From the NCBI RefSeq assembly GCF_000195755.1, contig NC_002937.3, positions 510,001 to 542,000 on the forward strand: 32,000 bases of DNA. The letters are read 5' to 3'. This DNA is from Nitratidesulfovibrio vulgaris str. Hildenborough (GTDB lineage Bacteria > Desulfobacterota > Desulfovibrionia > Desulfovibrionales > Desulfovibrionaceae). Positions 4,247 to 30,405 of the stretch are shown piece by piece. Both the position numbers and the translations under genes were made by a program. Below the pieces are notes generated by a model that made no database searches, had not been told where the DNA came from, and was given only the letters and a program-made list of their open reading frames with translations. How positions within the stretch are numbered: position 1 is the stretch's first letter; each line of letters opens with the position of its first letter.

Positions 4247-4335
4247 TGGTGCCGAAGGGGAGACTCGAACTCCCACTGGGGAACCCCAACTAGACCCTGA
4301 ACCTAGCGTGTCTACCAATTCCACCACTTCGGCGC
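4247..4335 (-). tRNA. tRNA-Leu (anticodon CAG), class II with long variable arm, encoded CCA
   Basis: The reverse complement reads GCGCCGAAGTGGTGGAATTGGTAGACACGCTAGGTTCAGGGTCTAGTTGGGGTTCCCCAGTGGGAGTTCGAGTCTCCCCTTCGGCACCA (89 nt). The acceptor stem GCGCCGA/TCGGC(A)C pairs. The anticodon stem is CTAGG/TCTAG with loop TTCAGGG (anticodon CAG). It has a GTTCGAGTC T-loop and a long extra arm typical of tRNA-Leu. Confidence 0.9.
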
Positions 4336-4815: not shown

Positions 4816-5760
4816 ATGGAAATCGCGCGCGAACTGCAAGAGATAACCCTCGACCTTTCACGGGGGACATGCGTCACCATCGGCAACTTCGACGGTGTCC
4901 ATCAGGGACACCGCAAGCTCATAGGCCGCACCCGACAGAAGGCTGCCCTGCGCGGCATGCCCTCGGTGGTGGTGACGTTCTGCCCGCATCCCCTCCGGGT
5001 TCTGGTCGGCCCGCATACGCCGCCGCTCATCACCGACTACGACAAGAAGCTAGACCTGCTTGAAGGACTCGGTGTCGACCTCGCGCTCATGCTGCGTTTC
5101 ACACGCGAACTCGCCGCCCTTGAGCCGGAGGACTTCGTCCGTACCGTGCTCGTCGAAGGGCTCAACGTCCGCGAACTGGTAGTGGGCTATGACTTCTCGC
5201 TCGGCAAGGGGCGCAAGGGCAACGCCGAAGTGCTGGCGCAGCTGGGCGCCCGCTACGGCTTCGAGGTCGAACAACTCGACCCTGTCATCGTCAACGACGC
5301 GGTGGTCAGTTCGACGCGTATCCGTGACCTCATCCGCGCCGGAGAGGTATGGGAGGTACGCCCCCTGCTGGACAGGTTCTACGTGGTGCGCGGCAAGGTC
5401 GTGCACGGCATGGGGCGCGGTGGCAGGCTGCTTGGCTTTCCCACCGCCAACATCGAACCGCGTGACGAACTCCTGCCCATGCCCGGCGTCTACGCCACGT
5501 GGGTGAACGTCGATGGCGCGTTGCACAGGGGGGTGACCAGCATCGGGCACAACCCCACCTTCGGCGACGAACGCCTCTCGGTCGAGACGCACATCCTCGA
5601 TTTCGACCGCGACATCTACGGCTGGGACATCAGCGTCGCCTTCGTGCAGCGCCTGCGCGAACCCAAGCGTTTTTCCGGCCCCGAAGAACTCGTGGCGCAC
5701 ATCCGCCACGACGTGAGCCTTGCACGGCAGATTCTCGACGCGCCAGAGGCGAGGCTGTAG
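4816..5760 (+). CDS. ribF: Bifunctional riboflavin kinase / FMN adenylyltransferase
   Basis: 314-aa ORF. N-terminal nucleotidyltransferase motif TIGNFDGVHQGHRKLI. C-terminal riboflavin kinase region GRGGRLLGFPTANI ... THILDFDRDIYG. AGGAA lies 4-5 nt before the ATG. Confidence 0.9.
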   Translation: MEIARELQEITLDLSRGTCVTIGNFDGVHQGHRKLIGRTRQKAALRGMPSVVVTFCPHPLRVLVGPHTPPLITDYDKKLDLLEGLGVDLALMLRFTRELAALEPEDFVRTVLVEGLNVRELVVGYDFSLGKGRKGNAEVLAQLGARYGFEVEQLDPVIVNDAVVSSTRIRDLIRAGEVWEVRPLLDRFYVVRGKVVHGMGRGGRLLGFPTANIEPRDELLPMPGVYATWVNVDGALHRGVTSIGHNPTFGDERLSVETHILDFDRDIYGWDISVAFVQRLREPKRFSGPEELVAHIRHDVSLARQILDAPEARL

Positions 5761-5764
5761 GCCC

Positions 5765-7576
5765 GTGTTACGCATCCTGGCCACCCCATGGCGCGAATTC
5801 GCGCGCCTGTATTCCTCGGTGGCCTTCGTGCGCCTTGCGGTACTCGGCATCGGCCTTGGCGTGGTGTCGGGGTGCGCGGCCATGCTCTTCTTCCTAGGCA
5901 TCGAGTACGCCAAGCATCTCATCCTCGTTGCATGGGCCGGTCTTTCGTTGCCAGCCCCCGCGGGCGAGGGGCTGTTCCATGACGCAGCGGCGGGCGGCGC
6001 GTATCGTCCGTGGGTCATTCCACTGGCCACCTGCGCCACGGGCCTTGTCACCGGCTGGCTGGTGCAGCGTTTCCTGCCGGACAGTCTCGCGGGCATGACG
6101 GACGGCACCGACGCCATGATTCGCGCCTTTCACAGGGGCAAGGGCGTCATCCGCAAGCGTGCCCCGTTCATCAAGGGGCTGACGTCCATCCTCACCATCG
6201 CATCCGGCGGTAGCGCCGGGCGCGAAGGGCCCATCTCGCAGATAGGCGCGGGGTTGGGGTCGTTCGTGGCCGACAGGCTGCACCTTTCCACCAAGGAACG
6301 GCGACTGCTCATGCTGGCGGGGGCCGCGGGCGGCCTCGGGGCCGTGTTCCGTGCGCCCCTCGGCGGTGCACTCACCGCGATAGAAGTGGTCTACCGCGAA
6401 GATTTCGAGGCAGAGGCCATGCTGCCCGCCATCCTCTCCTCGGTGGTGGCGTATACGCTCTTCGCCTACGTCTTCGGTACGGAACCCATGTTCGCCATCC
6501 CGCGATTCAGCTTCAGCGACATGCGCGAACTTCCGTTCTACCTCACCCTCGCGCTGGCATGTGCCTTCACCGGGTGGGCCTATGTGCGGACCTTCAGGTT
6601 CATGAAGTACGGCGTCTTCCTGCGCCTTGCCGAACGTGTCGGCATCATGTGGACGACGGCGCTGGGCGGCCTGCTGGTGGGCCTCTTCGGCATCATCTAC
6701 ACCCCCATGCTCTCCGACGGTTACGGCTGGGTGGAACAGGCCATTCTCGGGCATCTCACCGTCACCACCATGGTGACCATCATGGTCGCCAAGACGCTGG
6801 CAACCGCCATGACGCTGGGGTCGGGCATGAGCGGCGGCATGTTCGCGCCCGCCCTCTTCGTGGGCGGCATGACCGGGGGCGTCGTGGGCTATGCGGCGCA
6901 CGACCTCTTTCCGCACATCGTGCGTGAACCGGGCGGGTATGTGCTTGTGGGCATGGCGGCGTTCTTCGCGGGCGTGGCCCATGCCCCCGTGGGGCCGCTC
7001 ATCATGGTGTGCGAACTGACGCAGGGCTACGGCCTGTTGGCCCCGCTGATGCTGGCTTCAGCCGTGTGCATCCTGCTCAATCGCAAGGTGTCGCTGTATG
7101 AGAACCAGGTCGAGAACAAGTTCGAATCGCCCGCCCATGCCAGCGACGCCACGGTGAACCTTCTGGAGGGACTCACCGTGCGCGAGTGCTTCCACCGTGG
7201 CAGGGTGCCGACCCTCGAAGAGGGCACCACGCTGAAGGCCCTCACCGACGTCATCGCAGGTACGAGCGTGTTCACCTTCCCGGTGCGCGACGCCTCGGGA
7301 GCGCTGTCGGGCATTCTCGCCGTGCAGGACGTGCGCGCCCTGCTGTACGAGGAGAGTCTGTTCGACCTCGTGGTGGTGCGCGACCTCATGCGGCCGCTGC
7401 TGACGCTGGCCGAGAGTGACGACCTTTACGCGGCGCTGCTGCGCTTCGTGGACACCGACCTCAGCCATATCATCGTCGTCGATGATGACGACCGCGAGAA
7501 GGTGCTGGGGCTGCTGTACCGCGCCGACCTCTTCAAGGCCTACAGCGACGCGTTGCGTATCGCCCGCGAGGATTAG
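5765..7576 (+). CDS. ClC-family voltage-gated chloride channel/antiporter with a C-terminal CBS domain pair
   Basis: ClC signatures GSAGREGP, GAVFRAPLGG and GSGMSGGMFAP in a multi-TM protein. The C-terminal ~140 aa resemble tandem CBS domains. I prefer the GTG at 5765, directly after the ribF stop, over the track start at 5720, which overlaps ribF by 41 nt. The start is not certain. Confidence 0.85.
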   Translation: MLRILATPWREFARLYSSVAFVRLAVLGIGLGVVSGCAAMLFFLGIEYAKHLILVAWAGLSLPAPAGEGLFHDAAAGGAYRPWVIPLATCATGLVTGWLVQRFLPDSLAGMTDGTDAMIRAFHRGKGVIRKRAPFIKGLTSILTIASGGSAGREGPISQIGAGLGSFVADRLHLSTKERRLLMLAGAAGGLGAVFRAPLGGALTAIEVVYREDFEAEAMLPAILSSVVAYTLFAYVFGTEPMFAIPRFSFSDMRELPFYLTLALACAFTGWAYVRTFRFMKYGVFLRLAERVGIMWTTALGGLLVGLFGIIYTPMLSDGYGWVEQAILGHLTVTTMVTIMVAKTLATAMTLGSGMSGGMFAPALFVGGMTGGVVGYAAHDLFPHIVREPGGYVLVGMAAFFAGVAHAPVGPLIMVCELTQGYGLLAPLMLASAVCILLNRKVSLYENQVENKFESPAHASDATVNLLEGLTVRECFHRGRVPTLEEGTTLKALTDVIAGTSVFTFPVRDASGALSGILAVQDVRALLYEESLFDLVVVRDLMRPLLTLAESDDLYAALLRFVDTDLSHIIVVDDDDREKVLGLLYRADLFKAYSDALRIARED

Positions 7577-7715: not shown

Positions 7716-8939
7716 TCATTTCATGCCGCGTGCGTTGCAGGCCAGCCACGGGCAGAAACGCAGGGCATCCGCCGTGAGCGTGGTCGTCTCGCCTTCGCCT
7801 TCGTACAGGATGAGCGGAGGTTCCACGACAAGGCCGGGTCTTGCCCCGCGCATCGCCTCCACCAGAACGAGAACGGCTGGCCCGGTAACGCGGCTGTGGA
7901 CGCAACGCAGCCGTTTCGCCTCAAGTCCGGCGTCGGCGAGTGCGGTCAACAAGGCTGATAGACGTGCCGCGCCGTAGACGCATGCGAAGCGTCCGCGTGT
8001 CCGCAGAAGAAGGGCCGCAGCCCCGATGAAGGCTGCAAGCGTGCCCTTCGTCTCGAACAGGGCGGCGTTGCGCGCGGGCGTGGCGGCAGGACGTCCCGTG
8101 CCGGGAATGCGGTATGGCGGATTGGCGACCACGAGGTCGCACGTCCCCCGGAGGCGGGCGGCGAGACCATCCCTTTCGAGAGGCGCGTCGGCATCGTCCG
8201 CCGGTCGGCTTGCGGCCGTGTCATCGTCCGGGTGTGCGCCATGGCGCAGTGTGATGTTCCCCGCTTGCGCCGGTGCGCCGTGGGTGGGCGATGCGAGGCT
8301 GGCGCCTCCCGTGTCGCGGCGAGTGCTGTCACATGCGTGGGCATCGCAGGGGGGGCGGGCGCAAAGGCGGGTCAGGTCGGCATGGTGCACGGTGAAACGT
8401 GTGCTGAGACCAAGGCGGTGAGCATTGGCGCGGGCGGCGTTCACCAGTGCGGCATCCTGTTCGATGCCCACGCCGGAAAGCCGCGAAGACCCGAGAAGCA
8501 GCGCCAGCCCCACCACGCCGCATCCTGTGCCGAGGTCGGCGAAGCTGCGGGCGGCTGTGCCACCCGCGAAGGATGCAAGCAACAGGGCGTCGGCGCTGAA
8601 GCGAAAGCTGCCCGCAGGCTGGTGCAGCCCCCGTGGAAAACGGGCGCGGGCCGCGGCCTCGTCTGGGCCATCGTCCGTGTCCTTGTCTGCGGAAGCCGGG
8701 GGGGCACCCTCCGCATCTTTCGGAGACGCTGCGACTCTCGCTGGCGTTGCGGGAGCCTCGGTGGACGGCGCACCTGCTGCGTCCTCCACGGCGTTGTCAC
8801 TCGCGTTGCCGGAGGGTTGCAGAGGGGAGGGGACGACGATGGTTCCGGCAACGTTACCAGCATCATCGCCGGCGGCGTTGCCGGTGCCGGCCATGTCGCA
8901 GGGACGTCCGGCGGGCGTGGGGTTGGAGGTGTCGTGCAT
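7716..8939 (-). CDS. SAM-dependent N6-adenine methyltransferase (NPPY motif, TrmN6/YfiC-like) with low-complexity N-terminus and insertion. Start uncertain.
   Basis: Core motifs: FRFSADALLLASF, motif I DLGTGCGVVGLAL, motif IV CDLVVANPPY. A ~70-aa insertion rich in A/D/P/T/H separates motif I region and NPPY. The track ORF (to 9401) would overlap the divergent helicase start, so I chose the ATG at 8937-8939 (MHDTSNP...). The recognisable core only begins near 8650, so the true start may be anywhere in 8650-8939. Confidence 0.7.
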   Translation of the reverse strand: MHDTSNPTPAGRPCDMAGTGNAAGDDAGNVAGTIVVPSPLQPSGNASDNAVEDAAGAPSTEAPATPARVAASPKDAEGAPPASADKDTDDGPDEAAARARFPRGLHQPAGSFRFSADALLLASFAGGTAARSFADLGTGCGVVGLALLLGSSRLSGVGIEQDAALVNAARANAHRLGLSTRFTVHHADLTRLCARPPCDAHACDSTRRDTGGASLASPTHGAPAQAGNITLRHGAHPDDDTAASRPADDADAPLERDGLAARLRGTCDLVVANPPYRIPGTGRPAATPARNAALFETKGTLAAFIGAAALLLRTRGRFACVYGAARLSALLTALADAGLEAKRLRCVHSRVTGPAVLVLVEAMRGARPGLVVEPPLILYEGEGETTTLTADALRFCPWLACNARGMK

Positions 8940-9368
8940 GGCTTCAGGGTAGGCGAGCCAGCATTGCGGTGCAAGACGTTGCCACGGCTTTTCGTGTGCC
9001 TGCGGCAACCGCACGGACGAGCGAGACCGCATGTCGGGTGCGAGACTGCCATCACGGTACGTGCCGACGGGCCCCTTGCCGCAGGGTATGGGGCGGCCGC
9101 CCTGCTTTCGTGCGGTGGCGCAGGGCATCATGCGGTAACCCGTGCGGTGCATCCCGAAGGTTCTTCTGCGGGGCGCAGGGAAGGGCCTCGGAATGGGGCG
9201 TTTGGCCGAATGTCGGTGCGGGTTTGCGCATGGCATGGTTTGCAGGTACAGGAAAGGGGCGAAGAGGTGGGGCACGGCTTGCGATGTCTTGCGGGGGATG
9301 TCCTTGCACGTGTCTGTAGCGACGCGACAACCGCCAACCTCCTCCGGGAGCCATCGCAAGGCCCGGTC

Positions 9369-12300
9369 ATGCAGCAGTTTAGAGCCGACCTTCATATCCA
9401 TTCGCGCTTCTCAAGGGCCACCAGCAGTCGCCTCAACGCCCGGCATCTGGCGGCGTGGGCCGCCGTGAAAGGGATCGATGTGCTGGGTACCGGCGACTTC
9501 ACCCACCCGCAGTGGCTTGCTGAACTTCGAGAGCAACTCGTGCGCGACGACGCTTCGGGCCTCTACAGGCTGCGTGACCCGCGCGGACTCTCCGACGAAC
9601 TGCCCGCCTTCGCCGACAGGGTGAAGCAGTCGCGGTGCCTGTTCGTGCCACAGGCCGAGATAAGCTCCATCTACAAGCGCGGCGGCAAGGTGCGGAAGGT
9701 GCACAACATCGTGTACATGCCCGACTTCGACGCCGTGGACCGCCTCAATCGCAAGCTTGCCGAGGTGGGCAACCTCGTGTCGGACGGGCGGCCCATCCTC
9801 GGGCTGGATGCCCGCGACCTGCTGGGCATGGTGCTCGATGCCGACCCGCGCGGGGTTCTCGTGCCCGCCCATATCTGGACGCCATGGTTCGCCGTGTTCG
9901 GTTCCAAGTCGGGCTTCGACACCCTCGACGATTGCTTCGGCGACCTCACGGGCGAGATTTTCGCTCTTGAGACGGGGCTCTCGTCCGACCCGGAGATGAA
10001 CTGGCTGTGGAGTCATCTCGACCGTTTCGCGCTCATCTCCAACTCGGACGCCCATTCCGGCGACAATCTCGGGCGCGAGGCCAACCTCTTCGAAGGCGAG
10101 ATGTCGTACGACGGCATCTTCCGCAGTCTGCGCGGTGACGCCGTGGATTGCCGCTTTCTCGGAACGCTGGAGTTCTTCCCCGAGGAGGGCAAGTACCACC
10201 TCGACGGGCATCGCGCCTGCAATGTGGTGTACGAACCGCGCGAGACCGTGGCGCGTGGCGGCCTGTGCCCTGTGTGCGGCAAGCCGCTGACGGTGGGGGT
10301 GCTTCACCGTGTGCTCGAACTCGCCGACCGCGACACCCCTGAACAGGTGGCGGGGCGGCAGGGCTTCCGGTCGCTGATACCGTTGCCCGAGATCCTCGGC
10401 GAGATTCTGGGGGTGGGGGCCAAGAGTCGCAAGGTCGCAGACTGGACGGGTCGACTGGTGCAGCGCTTCGGGCCTGAACTCGCCATCCTGCAGGATGTGT
10501 CGCTGGACGCCCTGCGCCGTTACTGGGAACCGCTGGGCGAGGGCATCGCCCGGATGCGCCGTGGCGAGGTGCTGCGACAGGGCGGCTACGATGGCGAGTA
10601 TGGCGTGGTGCGTGTGTTCACCGAACGGGAACGGGCGTCGCTGCGCGGTGGCGGCGGGTCGAAGGCCGCGCTGCCGTTGCTCGACCTCGGAGGGGCGGCA
10701 TCCGCACCGGCCGTGCATGACACTCCGGGCCGGAGGAATACCGGGACGAAGGATGCGGGCGCCGGGGGTATCATCTCACCCGCTGTCGCAGGGGCGGACG
10801 TGGCGACGTCTGCGAAGGCGTCCGGCGGCAGGGCCGCAAGCGCATCTGAAGCCGGGGGCGCGAACGCGTCTGCCGAGACGACCACCCCGCACGATACCAC
10901 TGCCGTCCGGCAGACCTCCGCAGATGGCGGGGGAGAGGGACCGGGACTGGCTTCGCTCTTCATTTCAGCGCGTCCGGCAGAACCGCCTGTGGATTTCAAT
11001 CCGGAACAGCGTTCCGCCATCGCAGGCGGGCCGGGGCCGGTACTGGTGCTGGCAGGTCCCGGCACGGGCAAGACCCGTACGCTGGTGGGGCGTGTGCAGC
11101 GGCTTGTGGCCGAGGGGGTCGCCGCACGGCGCATCGTGGCCGTCACATTCACACGGCGTGCCGCCACGGAGATGGACGAACGCCTGTCCGTCACACTGGG
11201 CGACGGTGCACCGTTGCCACGTACCGACACGCTTCATGCCCTTGCCTTCGAGTTCTGGCATCGGTCATCGGCGCAGCCGCCCGTGCTCCTTTCGGAAGAG
11301 GCCGCCCGCCGGGTCTTTGCCGAGGCCAACCCCGACGCCACGGCACAGACGCTACGCGAGGCATGGGACGAACTGGCCGTGTGCCGCGAGCGCATGCAGG
11401 TGTGTTCGCTTGCGCTGGCCCCTCTTCTCGACCGCTATGTCCAGCAGAAGGCCGCGTGGAATCTCGCCGACTATACGGATTTGCTGGAATTCTGGCTTGA
11501 ACAGATACACAACGGCCTCTATGTGCCCCCGTGGCGTCATGTGCTGGTGGACGAGATACAGGACCTCTCGCCGCTGCAACTCGCCCTCGTGCGTGCCTTG
11601 CTGCCGCCGGGAGGCGAAGGGTTCTTCGGCATCGGCGACCCCGACCAGTCCATCTACGGTTTCAGGGGGGCGCACGGCGACGTGAAGGGGGCACTGGATG
11701 AGGCATGGCCGGGCCTCTCGGTGGTGACGCTTCGCGCCAACTACCGTTCGTCGGCGAGCGTACTCGATGCCGCCGGGGCACTCATGGAGGGACGTTCGGC
11801 GTGCGGGCGTCTGCGGGCCGTACGTGACCTGCCCGCCGACATCAGACTGTTCGAGGCCCCGTCCGCAGAGAGTGAGGCCGCATGGATAGGCGACCGGATA
11901 CGGTCGCTCATCGGGTCCACGGCGCATACGCTGGTGGATGCCGCACCTGAGGGTGCGCTACCCGGAGAGGGAACGTTCGGCCCCGGCGACATCGCGGTGC
12001 TGGTGCGGGTGCGTGCGCTCATTCCCGTGCTGCAACGCACGTTGTCGCGGCTTGGCGTGCCCGTGGCAGCCCCTGAGACGGAGGCCTTCTGGGCCGACCA
12101 GCGGGTGTCTCTCATCCTCGCCGCCGCCGGACGTTTCGTGGGTATCGGCAGTGCGGTCGCCGGAGGGCCCGGCGACGAGGTGAATTGTCCTGACAAGATG
12201 CTGGCGCGTGGCCCGCTGGGCGTTGCGGCCTACCTGCGCGAGTCGCCTCCCTTCGATGAACTGTTCTGGCAATCCGCGGCATTCAAGGCGTTGAGCAAGG

Positions 12301-12752
12301 CGTATGACACGCACGGGGGATGGGTGGGGCTCATCAACTGGGTGAATCTGCAAAGCGAACTCGAGACCGTGCGCAGGCGTAGCGAGAAGGTGCAGGTCAT
12401 GAGCCTTCATGCCGCCAAGGGGCTCGAATTCCGTGCCGTTTTCCTGCCCGCGCTGGAAGACGGCATACTGCCCTTCGCCGGGGCGGCGACGCTTTCAGGA
12501 CACGCCGACCGGGAACACATGCGCACCGACCTTGAGGAGGAACGCCGCCTGTTCTACGTGGGTATCACCCGTGCGGCAGAGGGCCTCTACCTCAGCCGGG
12601 CGTCGCGTCGCACCCTCTACGGGCGCGAGGTGCGTCTCAAGGCGTCGCGTTTTCTCGATGATGTGCCGGTGGCGGGGGTCAAGCGTTCAGCGCTGGTGCG
12701 TCACAGCAAGCATAGCGTGAAGCAGTTGAGTCTGCTTGGGGGCGGCGACTGA
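9369..12752 (+). CDS. Fusion protein: N-terminal EndoQ-like PHP/Zn-ribbon endonuclease domain (COG1379/TIGR00375-type) + low-complexity linker + C-terminal UvrD/Rep SF1 helicase
   Basis: I start at the in-frame ATG 9369 (MQQFRADLHIHSRFSRATS), not the track start 8232. N-domain motifs follow the order known from archaeal Endonuclease Q: DLHIHS, GTGDFTHP, PAHIWTPW, LETGLSSD, SNSDAHS..LGRE, GKYHLDGH, Zn-ribbon CPVCGKPLTVGVLHRVLEL, GGYDGEYGVVRVF. The linker (~10640-10975) is A/G/S/T-rich. Helicase motifs: FNPEQRSAI, Walker A AGPGTGKT, VLVDEIQD, GDPDQSIYGFRGA, NYRS, VMSLHAAKGLEF, RRLFYVGITRA. Confidence 0.85.
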   Translation: MQQFRADLHIHSRFSRATSSRLNARHLAAWAAVKGIDVLGTGDFTHPQWLAELREQLVRDDASGLYRLRDPRGLSDELPAFADRVKQSRCLFVPQAEISSIYKRGGKVRKVHNIVYMPDFDAVDRLNRKLAEVGNLVSDGRPILGLDARDLLGMVLDADPRGVLVPAHIWTPWFAVFGSKSGFDTLDDCFGDLTGEIFALETGLSSDPEMNWLWSHLDRFALISNSDAHSGDNLGREANLFEGEMSYDGIFRSLRGDAVDCRFLGTLEFFPEEGKYHLDGHRACNVVYEPRETVARGGLCPVCGKPLTVGVLHRVLELADRDTPEQVAGRQGFRSLIPLPEILGEILGVGAKSRKVADWTGRLVQRFGPELAILQDVSLDALRRYWEPLGEGIARMRRGEVLRQGGYDGEYGVVRVFTERERASLRGGGGSKAALPLLDLGGAASAPAVHDTPGRRNTGTKDAGAGGIISPAVAGADVATSAKASGGRAASASEAGGANASAETTTPHDTTAVRQTSADGGGEGPGLASLFISARPAEPPVDFNPEQRSAIAGGPGPVLVLAGPGTGKTRTLVGRVQRLVAEGVAARRIVAVTFTRRAATEMDERLSVTLGDGAPLPRTDTLHALAFEFWHRSSAQPPVLLSEEAARRVFAEANPDATAQTLREAWDELAVCRERMQVCSLALAPLLDRYVQQKAAWNLADYTDLLEFWLEQIHNGLYVPPWRHVLVDEIQDLSPLQLALVRALLPPGGEGFFGIGDPDQSIYGFRGAHGDVKGALDEAWPGLSVVTLRANYRSSASVLDAAGALMEGRSACGRLRAVRDLPADIRLFEAPSAESEAAWIGDRIRSLIGSTAHTLVDAAPEGALPGEGTFGPGDIAVLVRVRALIPVLQRTLSRLGVPVAAPETEAFWADQRVSLILAAAGRFVGIGSAVAGGPGDEVNCPDKMLARGPLGVAAYLRESPPFDELFWQSAAFKALSKAYDTHGGWVGLINWVNLQSELETVRRRSEKVQVMSLHAAKGLEFRAVFLPALEDGILPFAGAATLSGHADREHMRTDLEEERRLFYVGITRAAEGLYLSRASRRTLYGREVRLKASRFLDDVPVAGVKRSALVRHSKHSVKQLSLLGGGD

Positions 12753-12862: not shown

Positions 12863-13012
12863 CTAGTGCAGCCCGCAGACGCGGTAGACATACCGTTCGT
12901 ACAGGGTCGAGACCCTGCCTGCGGCGCGTTTGCTGAGTCCGGCCTCGCGCAGGCGACAGTATACATGAAGGGGGTTGAAACGGTGTTGCAGGAAATGGCG
13001 GACGTGACGCAT
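12863..13012 (-). CDS. Hypothetical small protein (49 aa)
   Basis: Internal ATG of the 82-aa track ORF (complement of 13010-13012), preceded by AGGAGA 6 nt upstream (GGGAGACAGGAGAGTACCATG). Product: MRHVRHFLQHRFNPLHVYCRLREAGLSKRAAGRVSTLYERYVYRVCGLH. I recognise no family. Confidence 0.35.
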   Translation of the reverse strand: MRHVRHFLQHRFNPLHVYCRLREAGLSKRAAGRVSTLYERYVYRVCGLH

Positions 13013-13160
13013 GGTACTCTCCTGTCTCCCGCATGGGAGACGCATCGGATTTTGCAAGGCCCGTGCCCTTTCGTCGACCCTCTGTCTCCATGCCCTGTTG
13101 CAGCGAAACACTTGTCGTCAGGAGCGGTACGGTGACGGATTATGGTCGCAGGGTGGAGGC

Positions 13161-13928
13161 ATGACCTGCAAGCGCGCCCTTACCGCATACCCTGAGCTTC
13201 TGTCCAGAACCGTGGCGGCCCCTTCTTGGGTAATGCCTGGAACTGTTCGGGATAATGCCATCTTTCTTTCAGGTGAAGTGGACGAGGTGGGGTTGTGCTT
13301 CTTCGAGACCGCAGCGTGTCTCGCCTACGGTGAGAACGACCTTCCGGAACATCTTGCCGACCTGCCACTGGGGTGGCATGTGCACCTGCCGGGCGACCTG
13401 CCATGGTGTGACGGAGGTGCAGAAGCTGCCGTCCCTGCCCTGCGGCTCATGGACAAGGTGGCCTTCCTCGGTGCACATCGCGCCGTCCTGCATCCGCCCG
13501 TGGGCTTTGCCGACGGTGCCGCACGCCTTGTCGCCTTCGTGCGTGCGTGGGAGGCTGCCGGACGCAATCCTGAAGACCTGTGCCTCGAGAACATCCGGGG
13601 CGAAGACCTGACAGGGTTGTGGCGCACCCTGTGCGACCTCGGCTGCAAGGTATGTCTGGACATGGGCCATGTGCTGTCCTACGGTCAATATGGCCTTCTG
13701 TCCCTGCCGGGCCTCTCCGGGAGAACGTCCATGTTGCATGCCAATGCTCCGGGGCCGGCGGGAAGGCATCTGTCGCTCGATACACTCGACGGGGCGGGAG
13801 GCGGCGTGGGGCGCGCCATGTGTGCGCTGCTGCCCGACGATGCCGTGGTCATGGTCGAGGTGTTCGACTGGGAGGGGGTGCGACGGTCGCTGCCCTTGCT
13901 CGAAACATGGTTCGCCGCGCAACGCTGA
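13161..13928 (+). CDS. Xylose-isomerase-like / AP-endonuclease-2 TIM-barrel protein, possibly a CbiR-type cobamide-remodelling phosphodiesterase
   Basis: ATG at 13161 with GGTGGAGG immediately upstream; this is in frame with the track ORF 13011..13928. The pattern PSWVMPGTVRDNAIFL..VDEVGLCFFE...WHVHLPGDLPW...LHPP...LENI resembles sugar-phosphate isomerase/epimerase-like TIM barrels. The CbiR assignment is from memory of family sequence patterns and is low confidence. Confidence 0.6.
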   Translation: MTCKRALTAYPELLSRTVAAPSWVMPGTVRDNAIFLSGEVDEVGLCFFETAACLAYGENDLPEHLADLPLGWHVHLPGDLPWCDGGAEAAVPALRLMDKVAFLGAHRAVLHPPVGFADGAARLVAFVRAWEAAGRNPEDLCLENIRGEDLTGLWRTLCDLGCKVCLDMGHVLSYGQYGLLSLPGLSGRTSMLHANAPGPAGRHLSLDTLDGAGGGVGRAMCALLPDDAVVMVEVFDWEGVRRSLPLLETWFAAQR

Positions 13929-13949
13929 CGGCGCGACACAGAGGTGGCA

Positions 13950-14957
13950 ATGTCGTATTTCCGCAAGCTGGATACGAAGCTTCCCCATCTGCTGGAGCTT
14001 CTCAACCGCGAAGAACGCTGGCTCATCGTCATCAATGCCGACCCCGATGCCATGGCGTCGGCCATGGCGCTGCGGCGCATCATGATCCATCGCGTGGCGG
14101 ATGTTGCCATCGCCCGTGTCAACGAGATCACCCGCCCCGACAACCTCGCCATGATCCGCTACCTGCGCATCCCCATGGTCAAGCTCACGCCTACCGTGGC
14201 AGCGCAGTTCGACCGCTTCGCGGTGGTCGATTCGCAACCGCATCACCATCCGCTCTTCCGTGACCTCAGCTTCTCGCTCGTCATCGACCACCACCCCCTC
14301 AGCGAGAAGAACCCCGTCATCGCCGACTTCAAGGAGATACGCACCGAGTACGGCTCCAACAGCACCATCATGACGGAGTTCCTGTACAACATGCACATCA
14401 GACCGGGGCAGTTGCTGGCCACGGCGCTGCAATTCGGCATCAAGACCGACACGGCAAGCTTCGAACGCGCAGCGTGCGATGTCGACCTGCGTGCCTACCG
14501 CTATCTTTCCAAGTTCTCGAATCCGGCGCTGCTTTCGCGCGTGGCCCGCAGCGAGTTCAGACTGCACTGGCTCGACTATTTCTCGAAGGCGTTCATCTCG
14601 ATGCACAAGTGCGGGTCGGGGCAGTACGTCTATGTGGGCGAGGTCGAGAATCCAGACATCCTCGTCGTCATCGCCGACTTCTTCATGCGCGTTCACGAGA
14701 TTCGCTGGACGGCCGTGTGCGGTGTGTATCAGGACACCATCGTTGTCATCTTCCGTGGTGACGGCGTCACCCGCGACCTCGGGCGCTACGCTTCGGCACA
14801 ATTCTCTGACATCGGTTCGGCAGGCGGGCACAAGGCCATGGCGCGTGCCGAGATCCCCCTCGAGAAGGCTGCGGGGCGCAACGTCGAGTTGTTCATCTTC
14901 AAGAAGTTGCTGGCACCGCGCAAGTCGGCGCGTCCTCGCGAGGAGGCGAAGCCGTGA
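13950..14957 (+). CDS. DHH/DHHA1-family phosphoesterase (NrnA-like)
   Basis: Motifs: INADPDAMASAMAL (DxD), VVDSQPHHH, LVIDHHP (DHH), GIKTDT, and DHHA1 motif GSAGGHKAMA. ATG at 13950 with GAGGTG 6 nt upstream. The track start 13944 is a GTG two codons earlier. Confidence 0.85.
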   Translation: MSYFRKLDTKLPHLLELLNREERWLIVINADPDAMASAMALRRIMIHRVADVAIARVNEITRPDNLAMIRYLRIPMVKLTPTVAAQFDRFAVVDSQPHHHPLFRDLSFSLVIDHHPLSEKNPVIADFKEIRTEYGSNSTIMTEFLYNMHIRPGQLLATALQFGIKTDTASFERAACDVDLRAYRYLSKFSNPALLSRVARSEFRLHWLDYFSKAFISMHKCGSGQYVYVGEVENPDILVVIADFFMRVHEIRWTAVCGVYQDTIVVIFRGDGVTRDLGRYASAQFSDIGSAGGHKAMARAEIPLEKAAGRNVELFIFKKLLAPRKSARPREEAKP

Positions 14958-15004
14958 GTCGTCTGCGGTACCCGTCATCCCGGTCGATACTGTGATGGAT
15001 GTTT

Positions 15005-15029
15005 CGGAGGCGGCCAATGGCCGCCTCCG
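15005..15029. terminator. GC-rich hairpin between convergent genes (possible bidirectional terminator; no U-tract)
   Basis: CGGAGGCGGCC (15005-15015) / GGCCGCCTCCG (15019-15029) is a perfect 11-nt inverted repeat. It lies between the DHH gene stop (14957) and the EAL gene stop (15113). There is no T-run on either strand, hence the low confidence. Confidence 0.4.
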
Positions 15030-15112
15030 TCGCGTATGCGCCATGTGAAGCGCTGCATGGCACATTGACGAGGCAGATGGCGGGGGCTCTTCCGGCTTCG
15101 GACCGTTTACTG

Positions 15113-16363
15113 TCAGGTCGCGGCACCGTCTCCGGTATGGCGGGCCGTGGCATCGACGCAGAGAATGTGGCTGCGGCCCCCCGCACAGTTGAAGCGCACC
15201 CCCACGGTGATGCACAGGCTACCTGTCGCGGCCGAGATGTAGGGTTGCGATACGCTGGCATCCACACCTCCGCGCAGGGGCTGGAACCATTCCTTGAGCG
15301 AGTGGTCGGTGCCGCGCGTGGCGGGACGATAGAGCACGACACGCTGCGGGATGCCTTCGCAGGGGCGGCACACGGAGTCGGTGGTCTGGCTGCCGAAGGC
15401 GTCGAGCACATAGAGGCATTCCATGTCGGGCATGTGCGGCAGGGCCTCTCGCAGGATGCGCCCGAAGCGGCGGGGCGACTGCCCGTCCAGCGCAAGGCGC
15501 AGCGGTCTCACAAGTTGCAGAAGCCGCTGGTGCTCCTGTTCCTCGGCCCGCAGGCGTTGCAGGGTCATGCCTGCATACAGGAGCATCGAACGGCGAAGTG
15601 CGGCAATGGGCTCGCGTGGTGCGGGAACGGGTTGCGGGTGTCCCATCAGGTAGCCCTGAAGCATGTCGACGCCGAGGTCGATCATGGTCGCCGCCTCCTC
15701 TTCGCGTTCGACCCCTTCCGCCACCGTCACGGCACCGATGCGCCGCGCCAGCGCCACCAGAGAGCGCATGACCTCGCGCCTGTGGAAGGTGGCGTCGCAG
15801 CCTGCCACGAGGTCGCGGTCGAGTTTGATGACGTCAGGGCGCAGGGCGGCGATGCGTGCGAGATTCGAATAGCCTGCCCCTACGTCGTCCAGTGCCAGCA
15901 GAAAGCCCGCTTGCCTGTGGCGTTCGCAGAACCGTGAGAGGGCCGCGTCATCGGGTACGGCCGATTCGATGATTTCGATGACCACGTTGTGCGGGGGAAT
16001 GCCCCAGCGCTTGGCGCATTGTTCGATGTGCCCCGAACCCACAGAGTTCTTGTCGAGAAGTGACGCGTCGATGTTGACGAAGAGCAGCAGGGCCGGGTGT
16101 GCCACATGGTGGTCCGAAAAGGCCGCGAAGGCCCTCTCGCGGCAGAGACGGTCGAGTGCGAGTCTTTCGGCAGGGGTCTTCGCCGCACCGAAGAGGCGCA
16201 GGGGGCTGATGCTGCCGGTGCCCGGCGGGTCGCCGGGGGCCATGCCGCGTGCCAGTGCCTCGAATCCTGCATGACGGCCCGTACGTATTGCCACAAGCGG
16301 CTGGAAGTAGGGTGTGACGTCGCCCTGTGTCAGGGCCTTGCGTGCGATGAGGGTGTCTTTCAT
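15113..16363 (-). CDS. EAL-domain cyclic-di-GMP phosphodiesterase with a C-terminal Cache/PAS-like (PDC-fold) sensory domain
   Basis: N-terminal EAL domain with its catalytic signature intact: YFQPLV, FEALARG, FVNID, EIIES, LDDVGAGYSNL, IKLDRDLV, AEGVEREEE, QGYLMGHPQP. The C-terminal ~150 aa contain SQPYISAATGSLCITVG, typical of Cache/PDC ligand-binding folds. Confidence 0.85.
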   Translation of the reverse strand: MKDTLIARKALTQGDVTPYFQPLVAIRTGRHAGFEALARGMAPGDPPGTGSISPLRLFGAAKTPAERLALDRLCRERAFAAFSDHHVAHPALLLFVNIDASLLDKNSVGSGHIEQCAKRWGIPPHNVVIEIIESAVPDDAALSRFCERHRQAGFLLALDDVGAGYSNLARIAALRPDVIKLDRDLVAGCDATFHRREVMRSLVALARRIGAVTVAEGVEREEEAATMIDLGVDMLQGYLMGHPQPVPAPREPIAALRRSMLLYAGMTLQRLRAEEQEHQRLLQLVRPLRLALDGQSPRRFGRILREALPHMPDMECLYVLDAFGSQTTDSVCRPCEGIPQRVVLYRPATRGTDHSLKEWFQPLRGGVDASVSQPYISAATGSLCITVGVRFNCAGGRSHILCVDATARHTGDGAAT

Positions 16364-17526: not shown

Positions 17527-17670
17527 ATCCGGCGTCGGAGCGCGCACTGCCGCCGGAAAGGAACGAGGGGACGCCCGAACGTTCCATCAGCAGGGGATGA
17601 CACATGCGGCGGAACCGCCAATGAACGGGCGCAGCGCGCCGCAACAATGCTTCATGACGAGGATGGCATC

Positions 17671-18471
17671 ATGCACATAGGCAAGAAGATCAGAATGGAG
17701 CGGCTCTTCAACCGCACCACAGGGCGTTCGGTCATCGTTCCTCTCGATCATGGCGTGAGCGTCGGCCCCATCGACGGACTGGTGGACATGCGTGACACGG
17801 TCAATCAGGTAGCCGAAGGCGGCGCGGATGCTGTGCTCATGCACAAGGGCCTCGTGCGTTGCGGGCACCGCGAGGGCGGCCGCGACGTGGGCCTCATCGT
17901 ACATCTCTCGGCCAGCACGTCGCTGTCGCCGTTGCCCAATGCCAAGACCCTCACCGCGACGGTCGAAGACGCCATCAAGCACGGTGCTGACGGCGTGTCG
18001 GTGCACGTCAACCTCGGTGACGAGACCGAGCGCGACATGCTCGCCGACCTCGGCCGTGTGGCCACCATCGCCAACGACTGGGGTGTGCCCCTTCTGGCCA
18101 TGATGTACGCGCGCGGCCCGCGCATCCGCGACCAGTACGACCCGCAGGTGGTGGCGCATTGCGCCCGCGTGGGTGTTGAACTGGGGGCCGATGTGGTGAA
18201 GGTGCCCTACACCGGTGATATGGATACCTTCGCCCATGTGGTGCAGTCGTGCTGCGTCCCCGTGGTCATCGCAGGCGGGCCCAAGCTCGACTCCACCCGC
18301 GACTTCCTCCAGATGGTGCATGACGCCGTCCGTGCCGGGGGTTCCGGTCTTTCGGTGGGGCGCAACATCTTCCAGCATGCCCGCCCCTCGCAACTGGTCA
18401 AGGCCGTGCGCGGCCTCGTGCATGAGGACTGGGACGTGGAACAGGCCATCGCCATCGTGGGCGAGGACTAG
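17671..18471 (+). CDS. aroA': 2-amino-3,7-dideoxy-D-threo-hept-6-ulosonate (ADH) synthase, class I aldolase of the archaeal-type DHQ pathway
   Basis: [64 protein letters not shown] matches my recollection of the MJ0400-type AroA' N-terminus (RLERIFNR...VIVPMDHGVS.GP..GL). ATG at 17671 with GAGGA 8 nt upstream; the track start 17647 is 8 codons earlier. Confidence 0.85.
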
Positions 18472-18479
18472 GCGTCGCC

Positions 18480-19451: not shown

Positions 19452-19453
19452 CC

Positions 19454-22721: not shown

Positions 22722-22752
22722 CAGGCGTACGGCACCGTCATATCGTTGTTGC

Positions 22753-22791
22753 AGCCGCGCTCCCTCCCCGGGGGCGCGGCTTTTTCTTTTT
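22753..22791 (+). terminator. Strong intrinsic terminator between tyrA and trpE (internal operon attenuator)
   Basis: GCCGCGCTCCC (22754-22764) / GGGGGCGCGGC (22770-22780): 11-bp stem with one G-U and a 5-nt loop TCCCC, followed by TTTTTCTTTTT (22781-22791). It lies 32 nt after the tyrA stop and 62 nt before the trpE ATG. Confidence 0.75.
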
Positions 22792-22852
22792 CGCCACAAA
22801 AGGGGCAAACGCCCGGGACGGCATCCCGGAAAGGCGACACGAGGAGAACGAC

Positions 22853-29865: not shown

Positions 29866-30405
29866 TTATGCCAAGCCACCGGGGCGTGCCCTCTTGGTGA
29901 TGAATCGGGTGGCGATGCTTAAAAGAACACTGATACACAAACAAAGTATGAAGGTGACAGGCGTGGTCACGAAGATACTGCCAGCAAGGCCGTGGAGTGT
30001 GATTGAGGGAAAAGCAAGAAATGAGAAAGGTTTAAGGAAAAAGGCAGCATGCAGAAGGTATATATTGAACGTGTGCTTTGAAAGCGTTGTCAATATGCTG
30101 CATTGATGGTTGCATGTCTGCTTTATGAGCAAAAAGGCAATCGATGTGAGAGCGAATATAAGTATAGAATCTTTTGTAAGGAATTTTGCAAGATACAGTG
30201 TGTCATCATATGATGAAATGGTTGCTGTAGCGTATGTTGCGATATATGTGATTGAAAACCATTTCAATAAGGTAATGCTCTTAAATCGATTGGGGCTGAC
30301 GGCGAGATGATGTCCGGTGACAAAGTATAATCCATATACCGTGAATATGATATTCTTGACAGGAAATATAATACCTAACCACTGAGCAATGTACAGAGAT
30401 AGTAT
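29866..30405 (-). pseudogene. C-terminal fragment of an acyltransferase-3 family (OafA-like) membrane protein gene, separated from its 5' part by the IS
   Basis: The minus-strand frame is open from 30405 (directly after the TGA formed at the IS junction, complement of 30406-30408) to the stop at 29866. Product: ILSLYIAQWLGIIFPVKNIIFTVYGLYFVTGHHL...SKHTFNIYLLHAAFF.... It is multi-TM and carries acyltransferase-3-like motifs. The DNA is AT-rich. Confidence 0.65.

What the first reader, a model, noticed from the sequence alone, without database searches (positions are those of the whole stretch)
9369..12752. EndoQ-like PHP/Zn-ribbon endonuclease fused to a UvrD/Rep helicase in one 1127-aa polypeptide
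The N-terminal ~420 aa carry, in order, the motifs I associate with archaeal Endonuclease Q (COG1379/TIGR00375). That enzyme nicks DNA 5' of deaminated or abasic lesions. The motifs are DLHIHS, GTGD, PAHIWTPW, LETGLSSD, SNSDAHS..LGRE, GKYHL, a CPVCG Zn-ribbon and GGYDGEYG.

After an A/G/S/T-rich linker of about 110 aa, a complete SF1 UvrD-type helicase follows, with motifs Q, I, II, III, IV, V and VI all readable.

A covalent fusion of a lesion-specific nicking enzyme to a 3'-5' unwinding motor suggests a self-contained nick-and-unwind excision repair module. EndoQ is mainly an archaeal enzyme with sparse bacterial homologues. As far as I know, this fusion has not been characterised biochemically.
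Basis: partly seen in the sequence, partly recalled or inferred. Interest (0 to 1): 0.65.

Follow-up and report, generated by a model that had tools for sequence, protein, structure and literature searches.

The report
EndoQ nuclease fused to UvrD-like helicase
This gene really does encode a DNA-damage-specific nicking enzyme (Endonuclease Q type) joined to a UvrD-like DNA-unwinding motor, but the fusion is a common, already catalogued bacterial protein family whose mechanism has not been tested in any paper I could search.

Summary
Window 9369-12752 (+) is one uninterrupted 1127-aa ORF with four parts:
- A complete Endonuclease Q module (aa 1-427). All catalytic, zinc-site and lesion-pocket residues are conserved, and the AF2 model matches PfuEndoQ at TM 0.81-0.89.
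- A disordered 111-aa linker.
- A UvrD/PcrA-like SF1A helicase (aa 541-1111) with every motif invariant.
- A disordered tail carrying QLSLL, a beta-clamp-binding-type peptide.

The fusion is neither rare nor new to the record. At least 600 GTDB species genomes encode close EndoQ homologues. Of the best 80, at least 58 are fused in frame, across a dozen or more phyla. Shiraishi et al. (2015, 2016) already listed Desulfovibrio and other roughly 1000-1250-aa bacterial "EndoQ homologs" with their C-terminal clamp motifs. No searchable paper characterises the fusion or discusses its helicase.

My best reading is inferred, not shown. It is a chromosomal, clamp-recruited repair enzyme that nicks 5' of dU, dI or AP sites and then unwinds the lesion-bearing strand from that nick.

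This is a new member of a known but uncharacterised family. Interest is moderate.

The parts
9369..12752 (+). Complete CDS, 1127 aa plus stop: EndoQ module, linker, UvrD-like helicase and clamp-binding tail.
   Evidence: Uninterrupted ORF. Full-length homologues at 100% coverage in more than 100 clusters. P0001 is 99% identical and the same length.
9369..10649 (+). Endonuclease Q module (aa 1-427): PHP catalytic domain, Zn-binding domain and C-terminal helical domain.
   Evidence: PDB PfuEndoQ at E = 1.8e-48 by phmmer and 6e-70 by profile. AF2 pLDDT 90.5, pTM 0.91. Foldseek to 5zb8/7k30 at E about 1e-35, TM 0.81-0.89 over about 430 columns. H9, H11, E97, H112, H168, D227 and H229 are invariant in 59 and in 47 homologues. 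They align to Pfu H8, H10, E76, H84, H139, D193 and H195 (residue roles from PMC5961232).
10209..10277 (+). Zn-binding site ligands H281, C284, C300 and C303. The first Cys of the archaeal C4 site is His in this bacterial clade.
   Evidence: All four are invariant in A1 and A2. They align to Pfu C249, C252, C268 and C271.
10650..10982 (+). Low-complexity A/G/S/T-rich linker (aa 428-538), predicted disordered, variable in length and sequence among homologues.
   Evidence: pLDDT below 50 for 428-538. No conserved columns in A2. The segment between the two folded modules measures 53-199 aa in relatives.
10989..12701 (+). UvrD/PcrA/Rep-like SF1A helicase module (aa 541-1111). The Walker A motif G563-T569 lies at nt 11055-11075.
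   Evidence: Pfam UvrD-helicase, AAA_19 and UvrD_C. PDB UvrD, PcrA and Rep at about 1e-44. Foldseek to 3pjr/2is6/4c30 at E about 1e-37, TMt about 0.7. The motif residues checked are invariant in 47 homologues: G563/G565/G567/K568/T569, D728/E729/Q731/D732, G756/D757/P758/Q760/Y763/R766, Y792/R793, H1014/A1015/K1017-E1020 and Y1063/V1064/T1067/R1068. The module scores below the equivalog cut-offs of PcrA, UvrD and Rep.
12723..12737 (+). QLSLL (aa 1119-1123) in a disordered C-terminal tail: a beta-sliding-clamp-binding-type motif (consensus QL[S/D]LF).
   Evidence: The tail 1112-1127 has pLDDT below 50. Q[LM]xL[FL] occurs in the last 15 residues of 144/244 long homologues, 81/124 50%-identity representatives and 43/55 fused GTDB loci. 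It occurs in 25/17409 control windows. The same motif class was tabulated for bacterial EndoQ homologues in PMC4858679 Suppl. Fig. S1.

Best explanation
The gene encodes a chromosomal, housekeeping DNA-repair enzyme made of three functional parts on one chain.

(1) The EndoQ module flips out a deaminated or missing base (dU, dI, dX or an AP site). It cuts the phosphodiester bond immediately 5' of it with a Zn-dependent PHP active site, leaving a 3'-OH and a 5'-phosphate that carries the lesion.

(2) A flexible tether of about 110 aa keeps a UvrD-like 3'-5' SF1A helicase at that nick. The motor most likely loads on the intact complementary strand and moves past the lesion. This peels off the 5'-P lesion-bearing strand, as PcrA does behind RepD and as UvrD does from a 5' nick in mismatch repair. 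A polymerase then extends the 3'-OH, and a 5' nuclease or flap endonuclease plus ligase finish the job.

(3) The extreme C-terminal QLSLL peptide docks the enzyme on the beta sliding clamp. That would recruit and perhaps stimulate it on newly replicated DNA and hand the nick to a clamp-bound polymerase. This is the bacterial counterpart of the PIP-box/PCNA stimulation shown for archaeal EndoQ.

Shown here: domain identities, intact catalytic residues, the disordered tether and tail, and conservation of the whole arrangement.

Inferred: substrate range, order of events, which strand the helicase tracks, and clamp binding.
For: - EndoQ identity and an intact active site and lesion pocket (H168, G203 and S205 correspond to Pfu H139, G169 and S171): with residue roles from PMC5961232 and PMC8307549.
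- The helicase motifs are invariant, and the fold matches DNA-bound PcrA and UvrD.
- The two modules stay together in at least 58 of the best 80 species genomes, across many phyla. About 127 of the best 150 representatives at 50% identity are at least 950 aa long.
- Geobacter anodireducens has the same two modules as overlapping adjacent genes, and its helicase still ends in EQLDLF.
- The C-terminal clamp-type motif is enriched roughly 400-fold over background. It sits in a disordered tail.
- Archaeal EndoQ binds PCNA through a C-terminal PIP box and is stimulated by it (PMC4858679).
- The original EndoQ paper proposed removal of the damaged segment by a helicase activity as one downstream route (PMC4357722).
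- The genomic context is housekeeping: ribF, ClC, CbiR-like, DHH, and an aromatic and tryptophan biosynthesis cluster.
- The domain is absent from 50,697 phage records and present on only one of 72,556 plasmids.
Against: - There is no experimental data for any member of the fused family.
- AF2 gives no fixed orientation between the modules (pTM 0.55), so nothing structural shows a hand-off.
- 13 of the best 80 close homologues are standalone with no helicase within 6 kb, so EndoQ does not strictly need a dedicated helicase.
- The helicase domains of different phyla are no more similar to each other than to E. coli UvrD. A dedicated, co-evolved helicase lineage is therefore not demonstrated.
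- The window protein's motif ends in L-L rather than L-F and is followed by GGGD, so its clamp affinity could be weak.
- A 3'-5' helicase loading on the nicked strand itself would move away from the lesion and would not remove it.
Confidence: 0.6

Rival explanations
1. The helicase is not an excision motor. It is a translocase or turnover device. It either carries the EndoQ domain along single-stranded DNA to scan for deaminated bases (at forks or transcription bubbles), or it strips the tightly product-bound EndoQ domain off the nick so that other enzymes can finish repair.
For: - PfuEndoQ stays bound to its nicked product and cleaves ssDNA as well as dsDNA (PMC5961232; PMC4357722).
- The long disordered tether and the lack of a predicted fixed interface fit loosely coupled activities.
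- The EndoQ domain is far better conserved than the helicase. It keeps 50-57% identity across phyla, while the summed tblastn helicase score falls from 871 bits to about 150-250 bits outside Desulfovibrionales.
Against: - Cutting ssDNA at forks would make double-strand breaks.
- Every helicase motif, including those that couple ATP hydrolysis to DNA movement, is invariant. That fits real unwinding equally well.
- No data discriminate this reading from the main one.
Confidence: 0.2
2. The C-terminal module is simply the cell's general UvrD/PcrA helicase (nucleotide excision repair, mismatch repair, replication-transcription conflicts) that happens to carry an EndoQ domain. The fusion would then reflect shared regulation or clamp recruitment rather than a sequential nick-then-unwind reaction.
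For: - The fused helicase domains score about the same against E. coli UvrD (150-310 bits) as against each other.
- The best structural matches are UvrD, PcrA and Rep.
- I could not check whether the source genome has a separate uvrD or pcrA gene.
Against: - The scores lie far below the NCBIfam equivalog cut-offs: PcrA 221 against 911, UvrD 196 against 1144, Rep 200 against 951.
- The module is about 590 aa against 720 aa for UvrD. In place of the UvrD C-terminal extension it carries a clamp-binding peptide.
- The helicase has been lost several times from within fused clades while EndoQ was kept, which is unlikely for an essential general helicase.
Confidence: 0.12
3. It is an anti-phage or anti-foreign-DNA nuclease-helicase, for example against uracil-containing phage DNA. 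The arrangement would be analogous to nuclease plus UvrD-like helicase defence systems such as Gabija.
For: - The helicase part hits PADLOC GajB models at up to 8e-55.
- A review (PMC8307549) reports the suggestion that bacterial EndoQ may take part in antiviral defence. [quoted passage not shown]
Against: - The GajB hits are generic SF1 similarity and are weaker than the PcrA hit.
- The EndoQ domain hits no PADLOC model.
- There is no GajA-like partner or defence-island context.
- Gene order is conserved across Desulfovibrionales.
- The EndoQ-domain tree largely follows taxonomy.
- The domain is absent from phages and almost absent from plasmids.
- A clamp-binding tail points to replication-coupled repair.
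Confidence: 0.05
4. The fusion is an artefact: a frameshift, misassembly or read-through of two adjacent genes.
For: One relative (Geobacter anodireducens, L001) has the two modules as separate ORFs that overlap by 80 nt in different frames.
Against: - The ORF in the window is continuous.
- The identical in-frame architecture occurs in at least 58 independent genomes and in hundreds of clusters.
- Both halves are under strong purifying selection.
Confidence: 0.01

Closest known systems
Archaeal Endonuclease Q (PfuEndoQ PF1551, TkoEndoQ TK0887; PDB 5ZB8, 7K30)
   Same: - The same three-domain fold, TM 0.81-0.89.
- All metal ligands, and the H139/G169/S171 pocket residues that the review PMC8307549 says exclude T and A, are conserved. 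So is the putative wedge residue Trp (Pfu W144 corresponds to W173).
- A clamp-interaction peptide sits at the extreme C-terminus. It is a PIP box in archaea and a QLxLF type here.
   Different: - Sequence identity is only about 28%.
- The first Zn ligand is His rather than Cys.
- There is a 7-residue insertion (SSIYKRG, with invariant Y102 and K103) between E97 and H112.
- About 700 extra residues are added: a linker plus a helicase.
- The partner clamp would be bacterial DnaN, not PCNA.
Bacterial 'EndoQ homologs' tabulated by Shiraishi et al. 2015/2016 (for example D. vulgaris Miyazaki WP_012612878 at 1244 aa, G. metallireducens at 1075 aa, Sorangium, Rhodothermus, Saccharopolyspora), and the short B. 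pumilus EndoQ
   Same: - It is the same family and the same long architecture. P0005, the D. vulgaris Miyazaki protein of 1244 aa, is 68% identical.
- It has the same C-terminal beta-clamp-type motif.
- According to papers I could read, the short B. pumilus enzyme nicks 5' of dU, dI and AP sites.
   Different: - The window protein is a new species-level member. Its closest named relatives, Nitratidesulfovibrio, are 67-69% identical.
- The accessible texts never mention the helicase half, and no long form has been assayed.
UvrD / PcrA / Rep SF1A helicases
   Same: - All SF1A motifs are present, and the fold matches at TMt about 0.7 to DNA-bound PcrA and UvrD.
- The module acts, by inference, from a nick made by a partner endonuclease. 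Known parallels are UvrABC-UvrD, MutH/MutL-UvrD and RepD-PcrA (established knowledge).
   Different: - It scores below every equivalog cut-off.
- It is about 130 aa shorter than E. coli UvrD.
- The C-terminal partner-binding extension is replaced by a clamp-binding peptide.
- The nicking partner is covalently attached.
Fused nuclease-helicases of the AddA/RecB/AdnB type
   Same: A UvrD-like SF1A motor and a nuclease lie on one chain. They appear as weaker structural and sequence hits.
   Different: In those enzymes the nuclease is a C-terminal PD-(D/E)xK domain that degrades DNA ends. Here it is an N-terminal, lesion-specific PHP/Zn nicking enzyme, and no end-processing partner subunit is evident.

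Membership tests
Endonuclease Q family (PfuEndoQ-like; TIGR00375 / Pfam PF27218 MJ0043_C) | PHP-fold catalytic domain with two-metal ligands H8, H10, E76, H84, H139 and D193, plus H195 | tested here: met
   H9, H11, E97, H112, H168, D227 and H229 align to these residues and are invariant in 59 and in 47 homologues. Roles are from PMC5961232.
Endonuclease Q family (PfuEndoQ-like; TIGR00375 / Pfam PF27218 MJ0043_C) | [quoted passage not shown] | tested here: met
   The H281/C284/C300/C303 site is invariant, with His replacing the first Cys. The AF2 model superposes on 5zb8/7k30 over about 430 columns at TM 0.81-0.89, while generic PHP enzymes reach only TM about 0.3.
Endonuclease Q family (PfuEndoQ-like; TIGR00375 / Pfam PF27218 MJ0043_C) | Lesion pocket residues said to exclude T and A (H139, G169, S171) and the putative wedge residue Trp144 | tested here: met
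   H168, G203, S205 and W173 are invariant. The mapping comes, and the roles from PMC8307549 and PMC5961232.
Endonuclease Q family (PfuEndoQ-like; TIGR00375 / Pfam PF27218 MJ0043_C) | Score at or above the curated cut-off of the family HMM | tested here: not met
   TIGR00375 scores 135 bits against a cut-off of 326.6, so the protein is not an equivalog by NCBI's archaeal-centred model. However, PF27218 is precomputed on the 99%-identical P0001 and on all listed relatives, and NCBI names close relatives 'endonuclease Q family protein'. PF27218 is not in the local Pfam copy, so I could not score it directly.
Endonuclease Q family (PfuEndoQ-like; TIGR00375 / Pfam PF27218 MJ0043_C) | Clamp-interaction peptide at the C-terminus | tested here: met
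   QLSLL at 1119-1123 lies in a disordered tail, and the motif class is strongly enriched at the C-termini of the family. Actual binding was not tested.
Endonuclease Q family (PfuEndoQ-like; TIGR00375 / Pfam PF27218 MJ0043_C) | Endonuclease activity 5' of dU, dI, dX and AP sites | not testable with these tools
   This needs purified protein and lesion-containing oligonucleotides.
UvrD/PcrA/Rep (SF1A helicases) | SF1 motifs Q, I, Ia, II, III, IV, V and VI intact | tested here: met
   The motif residues of I, II, III, IV, V and VI that I checked are invariant across 47 homologues. Pfam UvrD-helicase and UvrD_C score above their cut-offs.
UvrD/PcrA/Rep (SF1A helicases) | Four-subdomain 1A/1B/2A/2B fold | tested here: inconclusive
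   Foldseek gives TMt about 0.7 to PcrA and UvrD over about 650-680 columns. The region of about 895-1000, which would be the 2B equivalent, is shorter and partly of low confidence. I did not resolve subdomain boundaries.
UvrD/PcrA/Rep (SF1A helicases) | Orthology to UvrD, PcrA or Rep (equivalog HMM cut-offs) | tested here: not met
   PcrA 221 against 911 bits, Rep 200 against 951, UvrD 196 against 1144 and 199 against 965. The module is UvrD-like but not an orthologue of any of the three by these models.
UvrD/PcrA/Rep (SF1A helicases) | ATP-dependent 3'-5' unwinding | not testable with these tools
   This needs biochemical assay. The polarity is inferred from family membership only.
Gabija-type defence (GajA nuclease plus GajB UvrD-like helicase) | A GajB-specific helicase paired with an adjacent GajA OLD-family (ATPase-TOPRIM) nuclease in a defence locus. 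This definition is from my own knowledge of the system. | tested here: not met
   There are only generic GajB hits, weaker than the PcrA hit. The nuclease domain has no PADLOC hit. The neighbours are housekeeping genes.

The most novel reading that the evidence does not exclude
The EndoQ-linker-helicase-clamp-peptide polypeptide is a self-contained, clamp-guided nick-and-unwind excision pathway, and it is the main way bacteria use EndoQ. If so, it would be a widespread bacterial repair route for deaminated and abasic DNA. It would run parallel to UDG/AP-endonuclease base excision repair and to EndoV, and it has never been reconstituted. In many phyla the protein carries two clamp-binding peptides, one after each module. 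That could let one beta-clamp dimer hold both ends of the enzyme, or let the nuclease and the motor take turns on the clamp.
Probability: 0.45. Interest if true: 0.6.

Novelty: new member of a known kind. Interest (0 to 1): 0.4.

Why it matters
EndoQ is usually presented as an archaeal peculiarity. These data show that its closest bacterial relatives are abundant and mostly come welded to a UvrD-like motor and a clamp-docking peptide.

That architecture makes a clear, testable prediction for a question left open since EndoQ and EndoV were described: what happens after a lesion-adjacent nick in alternative excision repair. The prediction is that the same protein opens the nick, the clamp brings in the polymerase, and no glycosylase is needed.

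Several members come from organisms that are commonly cultured, by my own knowledge (Desulfovibrio, Geobacter, Sorangium; Streptomyces and Zymomonas also appear in the lists). The experiment should therefore be feasible.

For this particular window, the gene is an ordinary, conserved member of that family. It is not a unique invention.

Tried and rejected
- Literature. Searches for 'endonuclease Q' + UvrD, EndoQ + helicase + fusion, TIGR00375, and 'PHP domain' + UvrD + fused found nothing on the fusion. The PNAS 2021 structure paper and the 2017 B. pumilus paper are not held, so I cannot exclude that they mention the helicase.
- Defence hypothesis. PADLOC gave only generic UvrD/GajB hits. The EndoQ domain is absent from phage records and present on one megaplasmid only. 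I rejected this as the main reading.
- Dedicated helicase lineage. All-against-all BLASTP showed that fused helicases from different phyla are no closer to each other than to E. coli UvrD. I could therefore not show a single co-evolving helicase clade. A proper phylogeny with many canonical UvrD and PcrA sequences is needed.
- Repair-gene neighbourhood. The window neighbours are ribF, ClC, a methyltransferase, CbiR-like, DHH and EAL genes. Only the DHH gene is conserved next to the fusion within Desulfovibrionales, and it did not match RecJ or NrnA models. I treat this as a weak lead only.
- Inter-domain docking. The full-length AF2 model has pTM 0.55, with the linker disordered, so there is no usable prediction of a nuclease-helicase interface.

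Full report
**1. Is it there?**

Yes. Window 9369-12752 (+) is a single open reading frame of 1127 codons plus a stop, starting ATG (MQQFRADLHIHS). The frame stays open upstream to 8232 only because the DNA is 65-70% G+C. A 99%-identical database protein (P0001) has the same length, so the start at 9369 is the one gene callers use.

**2. The N-terminal module is a bona fide EndoQ.**

- phmmer of aa 1-430 against all PDB chains returns only Pyrococcus furiosus EndoQ (5zb8, 7k30-33) at E = 1.8e-48.
- A profile built from 59 homologues aligns to it end to end (residues 5-417 against 5-386) at E = 6e-70.
- An AlphaFold2 model (pLDDT 90.5, pTM 0.91) superposes on 5zb8 and 7k30 at TM 0.81-0.89 over about 430 columns. 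It covers the PHP, Zn-binding and helical domains. Ordinary PHP phosphoesterases reach only TM about 0.3.
- The residues shown by mutagenesis to be catalytic in PfuEndoQ are H8, H10, E76, H84, H139 and D193, plus H195 (PMC5961232). They correspond to H9, H11, E97, H112, H168, D227 and H229. All are invariant in 59 EndoQ-domain sequences and in 47 full-length homologues.
- The pocket residues said to exclude thymine and adenine are H139, G169 and S171 (PMC8307549). Together with the putative wedge residue Trp144, they correspond to invariant H168, G203, S205 and W173.
- The zinc site is H281/C284/C300/C303, so the first cysteine of the archaeal C4 site is a histidine throughout this bacterial clade.
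- A 7-residue insertion containing invariant Y102 and K103 separates E97 from H112.
- The NCBIfam model TIGR00375 matches at E = 4e-39 but at 135 bits, below its cut-off of 326.6. By that archaeal-centred model the protein is a relative, not an equivalog.
- The newer Pfam family PF27218 (MJ0043_C) is recorded on all close homologues. NCBI calls related proteins 'endonuclease Q family protein'.

**3. The C-terminal module is a UvrD-like SF1A helicase.**

- Pfam UvrD-helicase scores 7e-40, AAA_19 8e-23 and UvrD_C 2.5e-30.
- PDB UvrD, PcrA, Rep and M. tuberculosis UvrD1 score about 1e-42 to 1e-44.
- The full-length AF2 model matches DNA-bound PcrA and UvrD at E about 1e-37, TMt about 0.7.
- The catalytic motif residues I checked are invariant in 47 homologues: Walker A (G563/G565/G567/K568/T569), motif II (D728/E729/Q731/D732), III (G756/D757/P758/Q760/Y763/R766), IV (Y792/R793), V (H1014/A1015/K1017-E1020) and VI (Y1063/V1064/T1067/R1068).
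- The module is not an orthologue of UvrD, PcrA or Rep by NCBI's models. It scores 196-221 bits against cut-offs of 911-1144.
- It is about 130 aa shorter than E. coli UvrD (720 aa).

**4. Linker and tail.**

The full-length model (pLDDT 80.6, pTM 0.55) has two confident bodies, aa 1-427 and 541-1111. It also has two disordered stretches: the linker 428-538 and the last 16 residues 1112-1127. The segment between the two folded modules is not conserved in sequence and measures 53-199 aa among relatives.

The tail reads ...VKQLSLLGGGD. Across the family the extreme C-terminus almost always carries QLxLF, QLSLL or QMxLF. The strict pattern Q[LM]xL[FL] lies in the last 15 residues as follows:

| Set | With motif |
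|---|---|
| Long homologues | 144 of 244 |
| Representatives at 50% identity | 81 of 124 |
| Fused loci from GTDB species genomes | 43 of 55 |
| Control windows | 25 of 17,409 |

Most exceptions are near-variants such as KKLSLF, QPSLF and QLELW. This is the consensus bacterial beta-clamp-binding motif QL[S/D]LF.

**5. How common is the fusion?**

Very common.

- The best 80 loci are 50-77% identical to the window's EndoQ domain. They come from Desulfovibrionales, Desulfobulbales, Geobacter, Sorangium and Myxococcales, actinomycetes (Saccharopolyspora, Streptomyces, Kutzneria), Bacteroidota, Rhodothermaceae, Fodinibius, Verrucomicrobiota, Acidobacteriota, Gemmatimonadota, Binatia, Latescibacterota, Fibrobacterota, Chloroflexota and Gastranaerophilales.
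- My ORF and tblastn classification found 58 clearly fused in frame. Several more were fused but cut by contig ends. 13 were standalone with no helicase within 6 kb, and 5 were too short to judge.
- An exhaustive HMMER search of 1.84 billion representative proteins found 1025 clusters at E <= 1e-30. About 127 of the best 150 are at least 950 aa long.
- A rough neighbour-joining tree of EndoQ domains groups sequences largely by taxonomy. It scatters the standalone forms among fused clades, for example Streptosporangium next to the fused actinomycete clade and Luteolibacter next to Opitutaceae. This suggests that the fusion is old in this bacterial clade and that the helicase was lost or split off repeatedly. 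The tree is crude, so this is a suggestion, not a result.
- Geobacter anodireducens shows a split form. A 492-aa EndoQ gene overlaps by 80 nt a separate 601-aa UvrD-like gene that still ends in EQLDLF.

**6. What was already known.**

- Shiraishi et al. [quoted passage not shown] They also propose, as one downstream route, removal of the damaged segment 'by helicase activity'.
- Shiraishi et al. 2016 (PMC4858679) show that archaeal EndoQ binds PCNA through a C-terminal PIP box and is stimulated by it. They note beta-clamp motifs in bacterial homologues.
- Their Supplementary Fig. S1 lists more than 30 bacterial proteins whose motif lies at positions of about 941-1244. These include D. vulgaris WP_012612878 (QLSLM, 1240-1244), G. 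metallireducens, Sorangium, Rhodothermus and Saccharopolyspora. The word 'helicase' does not occur in that supplement.
- According to papers I could read, the short B. pumilus EndoQ was shown to be active.
- I found no paper that analyses or assays the helicase fusion. Two relevant papers are not held.
- Public annotation already labels these proteins 'UvrD-helicase domain-containing protein' or 'TIGR00375 family'.

**7. Context.**

The gene sits in ordinary chromosomal surroundings:

- tRNA-Leu, ribF and a ClC channel upstream.
- A divergently transcribed methyltransferase.
- Downstream, a CbiR-like phosphodiesterase, a DHH phosphoesterase and an EAL protein.
- Further on, an aromatic amino-acid and tryptophan biosynthesis cluster.

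The downstream DHH gene, and often the CbiR-like gene, stay next to the fusion across Desulfovibrionales. The EndoQ domain has no hit in 50,697 phage records and one hit in 72,556 plasmids. It has none in PADLOC. This is a core repair gene, not a mobile or defence gene.

**8. Mechanism.**

The following are shown:

- A catalytically intact EndoQ.
- A catalytically intact SF1A motor.
- A flexible tether.
- A clamp-type peptide in a disordered tail.
- Conservation of the whole arrangement.

The following is inferred. The clamp recruits the protein to recently replicated DNA. EndoQ flips out the lesion and nicks 5' of it. The tethered helicase is a 3'-5' translocase by family. It loads on the intact strand and displaces the 5'-P lesion-bearing strand while a clamp-bound polymerase extends the 3'-OH. 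A 5' nuclease and ligase then finish.

The strand choice is the least secure step. If the motor instead tracked the nicked strand, it would move away from the lesion. The rivals are a scanning or turnover motor, a general UvrD with a passenger domain, a defence system, and an artefact. They are listed separately with their evidence.

**9. Verdict.**

Both domain calls and the lack of published biochemistry hold, but the rarity claim is wrong and the family was already catalogued. The window's protein is a new member of a known, experimentally untouched family. The open mechanistic question gives it moderate interest (0.4).

Noticed in passing
Related loci L027-L083, about 15-35 aa after the GYDGEYG motif. 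In the window protein the equivalent is aa about 435-441 (LPLLDL, nt about 10671-10691).: Outside Desulfovibrionales, most fused proteins carry a second clamp-binding-like motif right after the EndoQ module (GQLNLFG, GQISLFT, PALFDD and similar), in addition to the C-terminal one. Of 36 such proteins, 34 have [LFM]F and 20 have Q..[LFM]F, against 17% and 1% of control windows. The Desulfovibrionales clade, which includes this window, has lost it (0/17 strict). Only a weak [LM]PLL remnant is shared with its closest relatives.
   Followed up: partly
L001 (Geobacter anodireducens JXBL01000001.1) 8001-9479 and 9400-11205; uvrB at 13887-15881 (-): Here the EndoQ and UvrD-like modules are separate ORFs that overlap by 80 nt in different frames. 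The helicase still ends in EQLDLF. This could be a real gene fission, a conserved frameshift or a sequencing error; I did not resolve which. A uvrB gene lies 2.7 kb away on the other strand.
   Followed up: partly
window 13011-13928 (+) and 13944-14957 (+): A CbiR-like cobamide-remodelling phosphodiesterase (NF041277, 168 bits, above its cut-off) and a 337-aa DHH-family phosphoesterase follow the fusion gene. The DHH gene stays adjacent across Desulfovibrionales (52-82% identity in 10 loci). It does not match RecJ or NrnA models, so any link to processing of the displaced strand is speculative.
   Followed up: partly
window 7716-9401 (-): This is a divergent ORF with a small-methyltransferase domain (PF05175; weak PrmC/TrmN-like hits). 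It has a long, low-complexity, poorly supported N-terminal extension whose nominal start overlaps the start of the EndoQ gene. The true start is probably much further downstream, which would leave a divergent promoter region.
   Followed up: no
window 30442-31491 (-), within 30001-32000: A DDE (rve) transposase with HTH domains lies in a patch where G+C drops from about 0.66 to 0.49-0.54. It is probably an insertion sequence of foreign origin.
   Followed up: no
window 4247-4333 (-); 4816-7576 (+); 17647-24451 (+): tRNA-Leu(CAG); ribF (FAD synthetase/riboflavin kinase) and a ClC channel with a CBS domain; then a DeoC-family aldolase, chorismate mutase/prephenate dehydratase, EPSP synthase and anthranilate synthase component I. 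This is ordinary core-genome content of a Desulfovibrionaceae chromosome.
   Followed up: no
window 9369-12752 compared with the best 80 GTDB loci: The EndoQ half is much more conserved than the helicase half. It keeps 50-57% identity across phyla. The summed tblastn helicase score drops from 871 bits in the nearest relative (L004) to about 150-250 bits outside Desulfovibrionales, which is no better than the blastp similarity to E. coli UvrD.
   Followed up: partly
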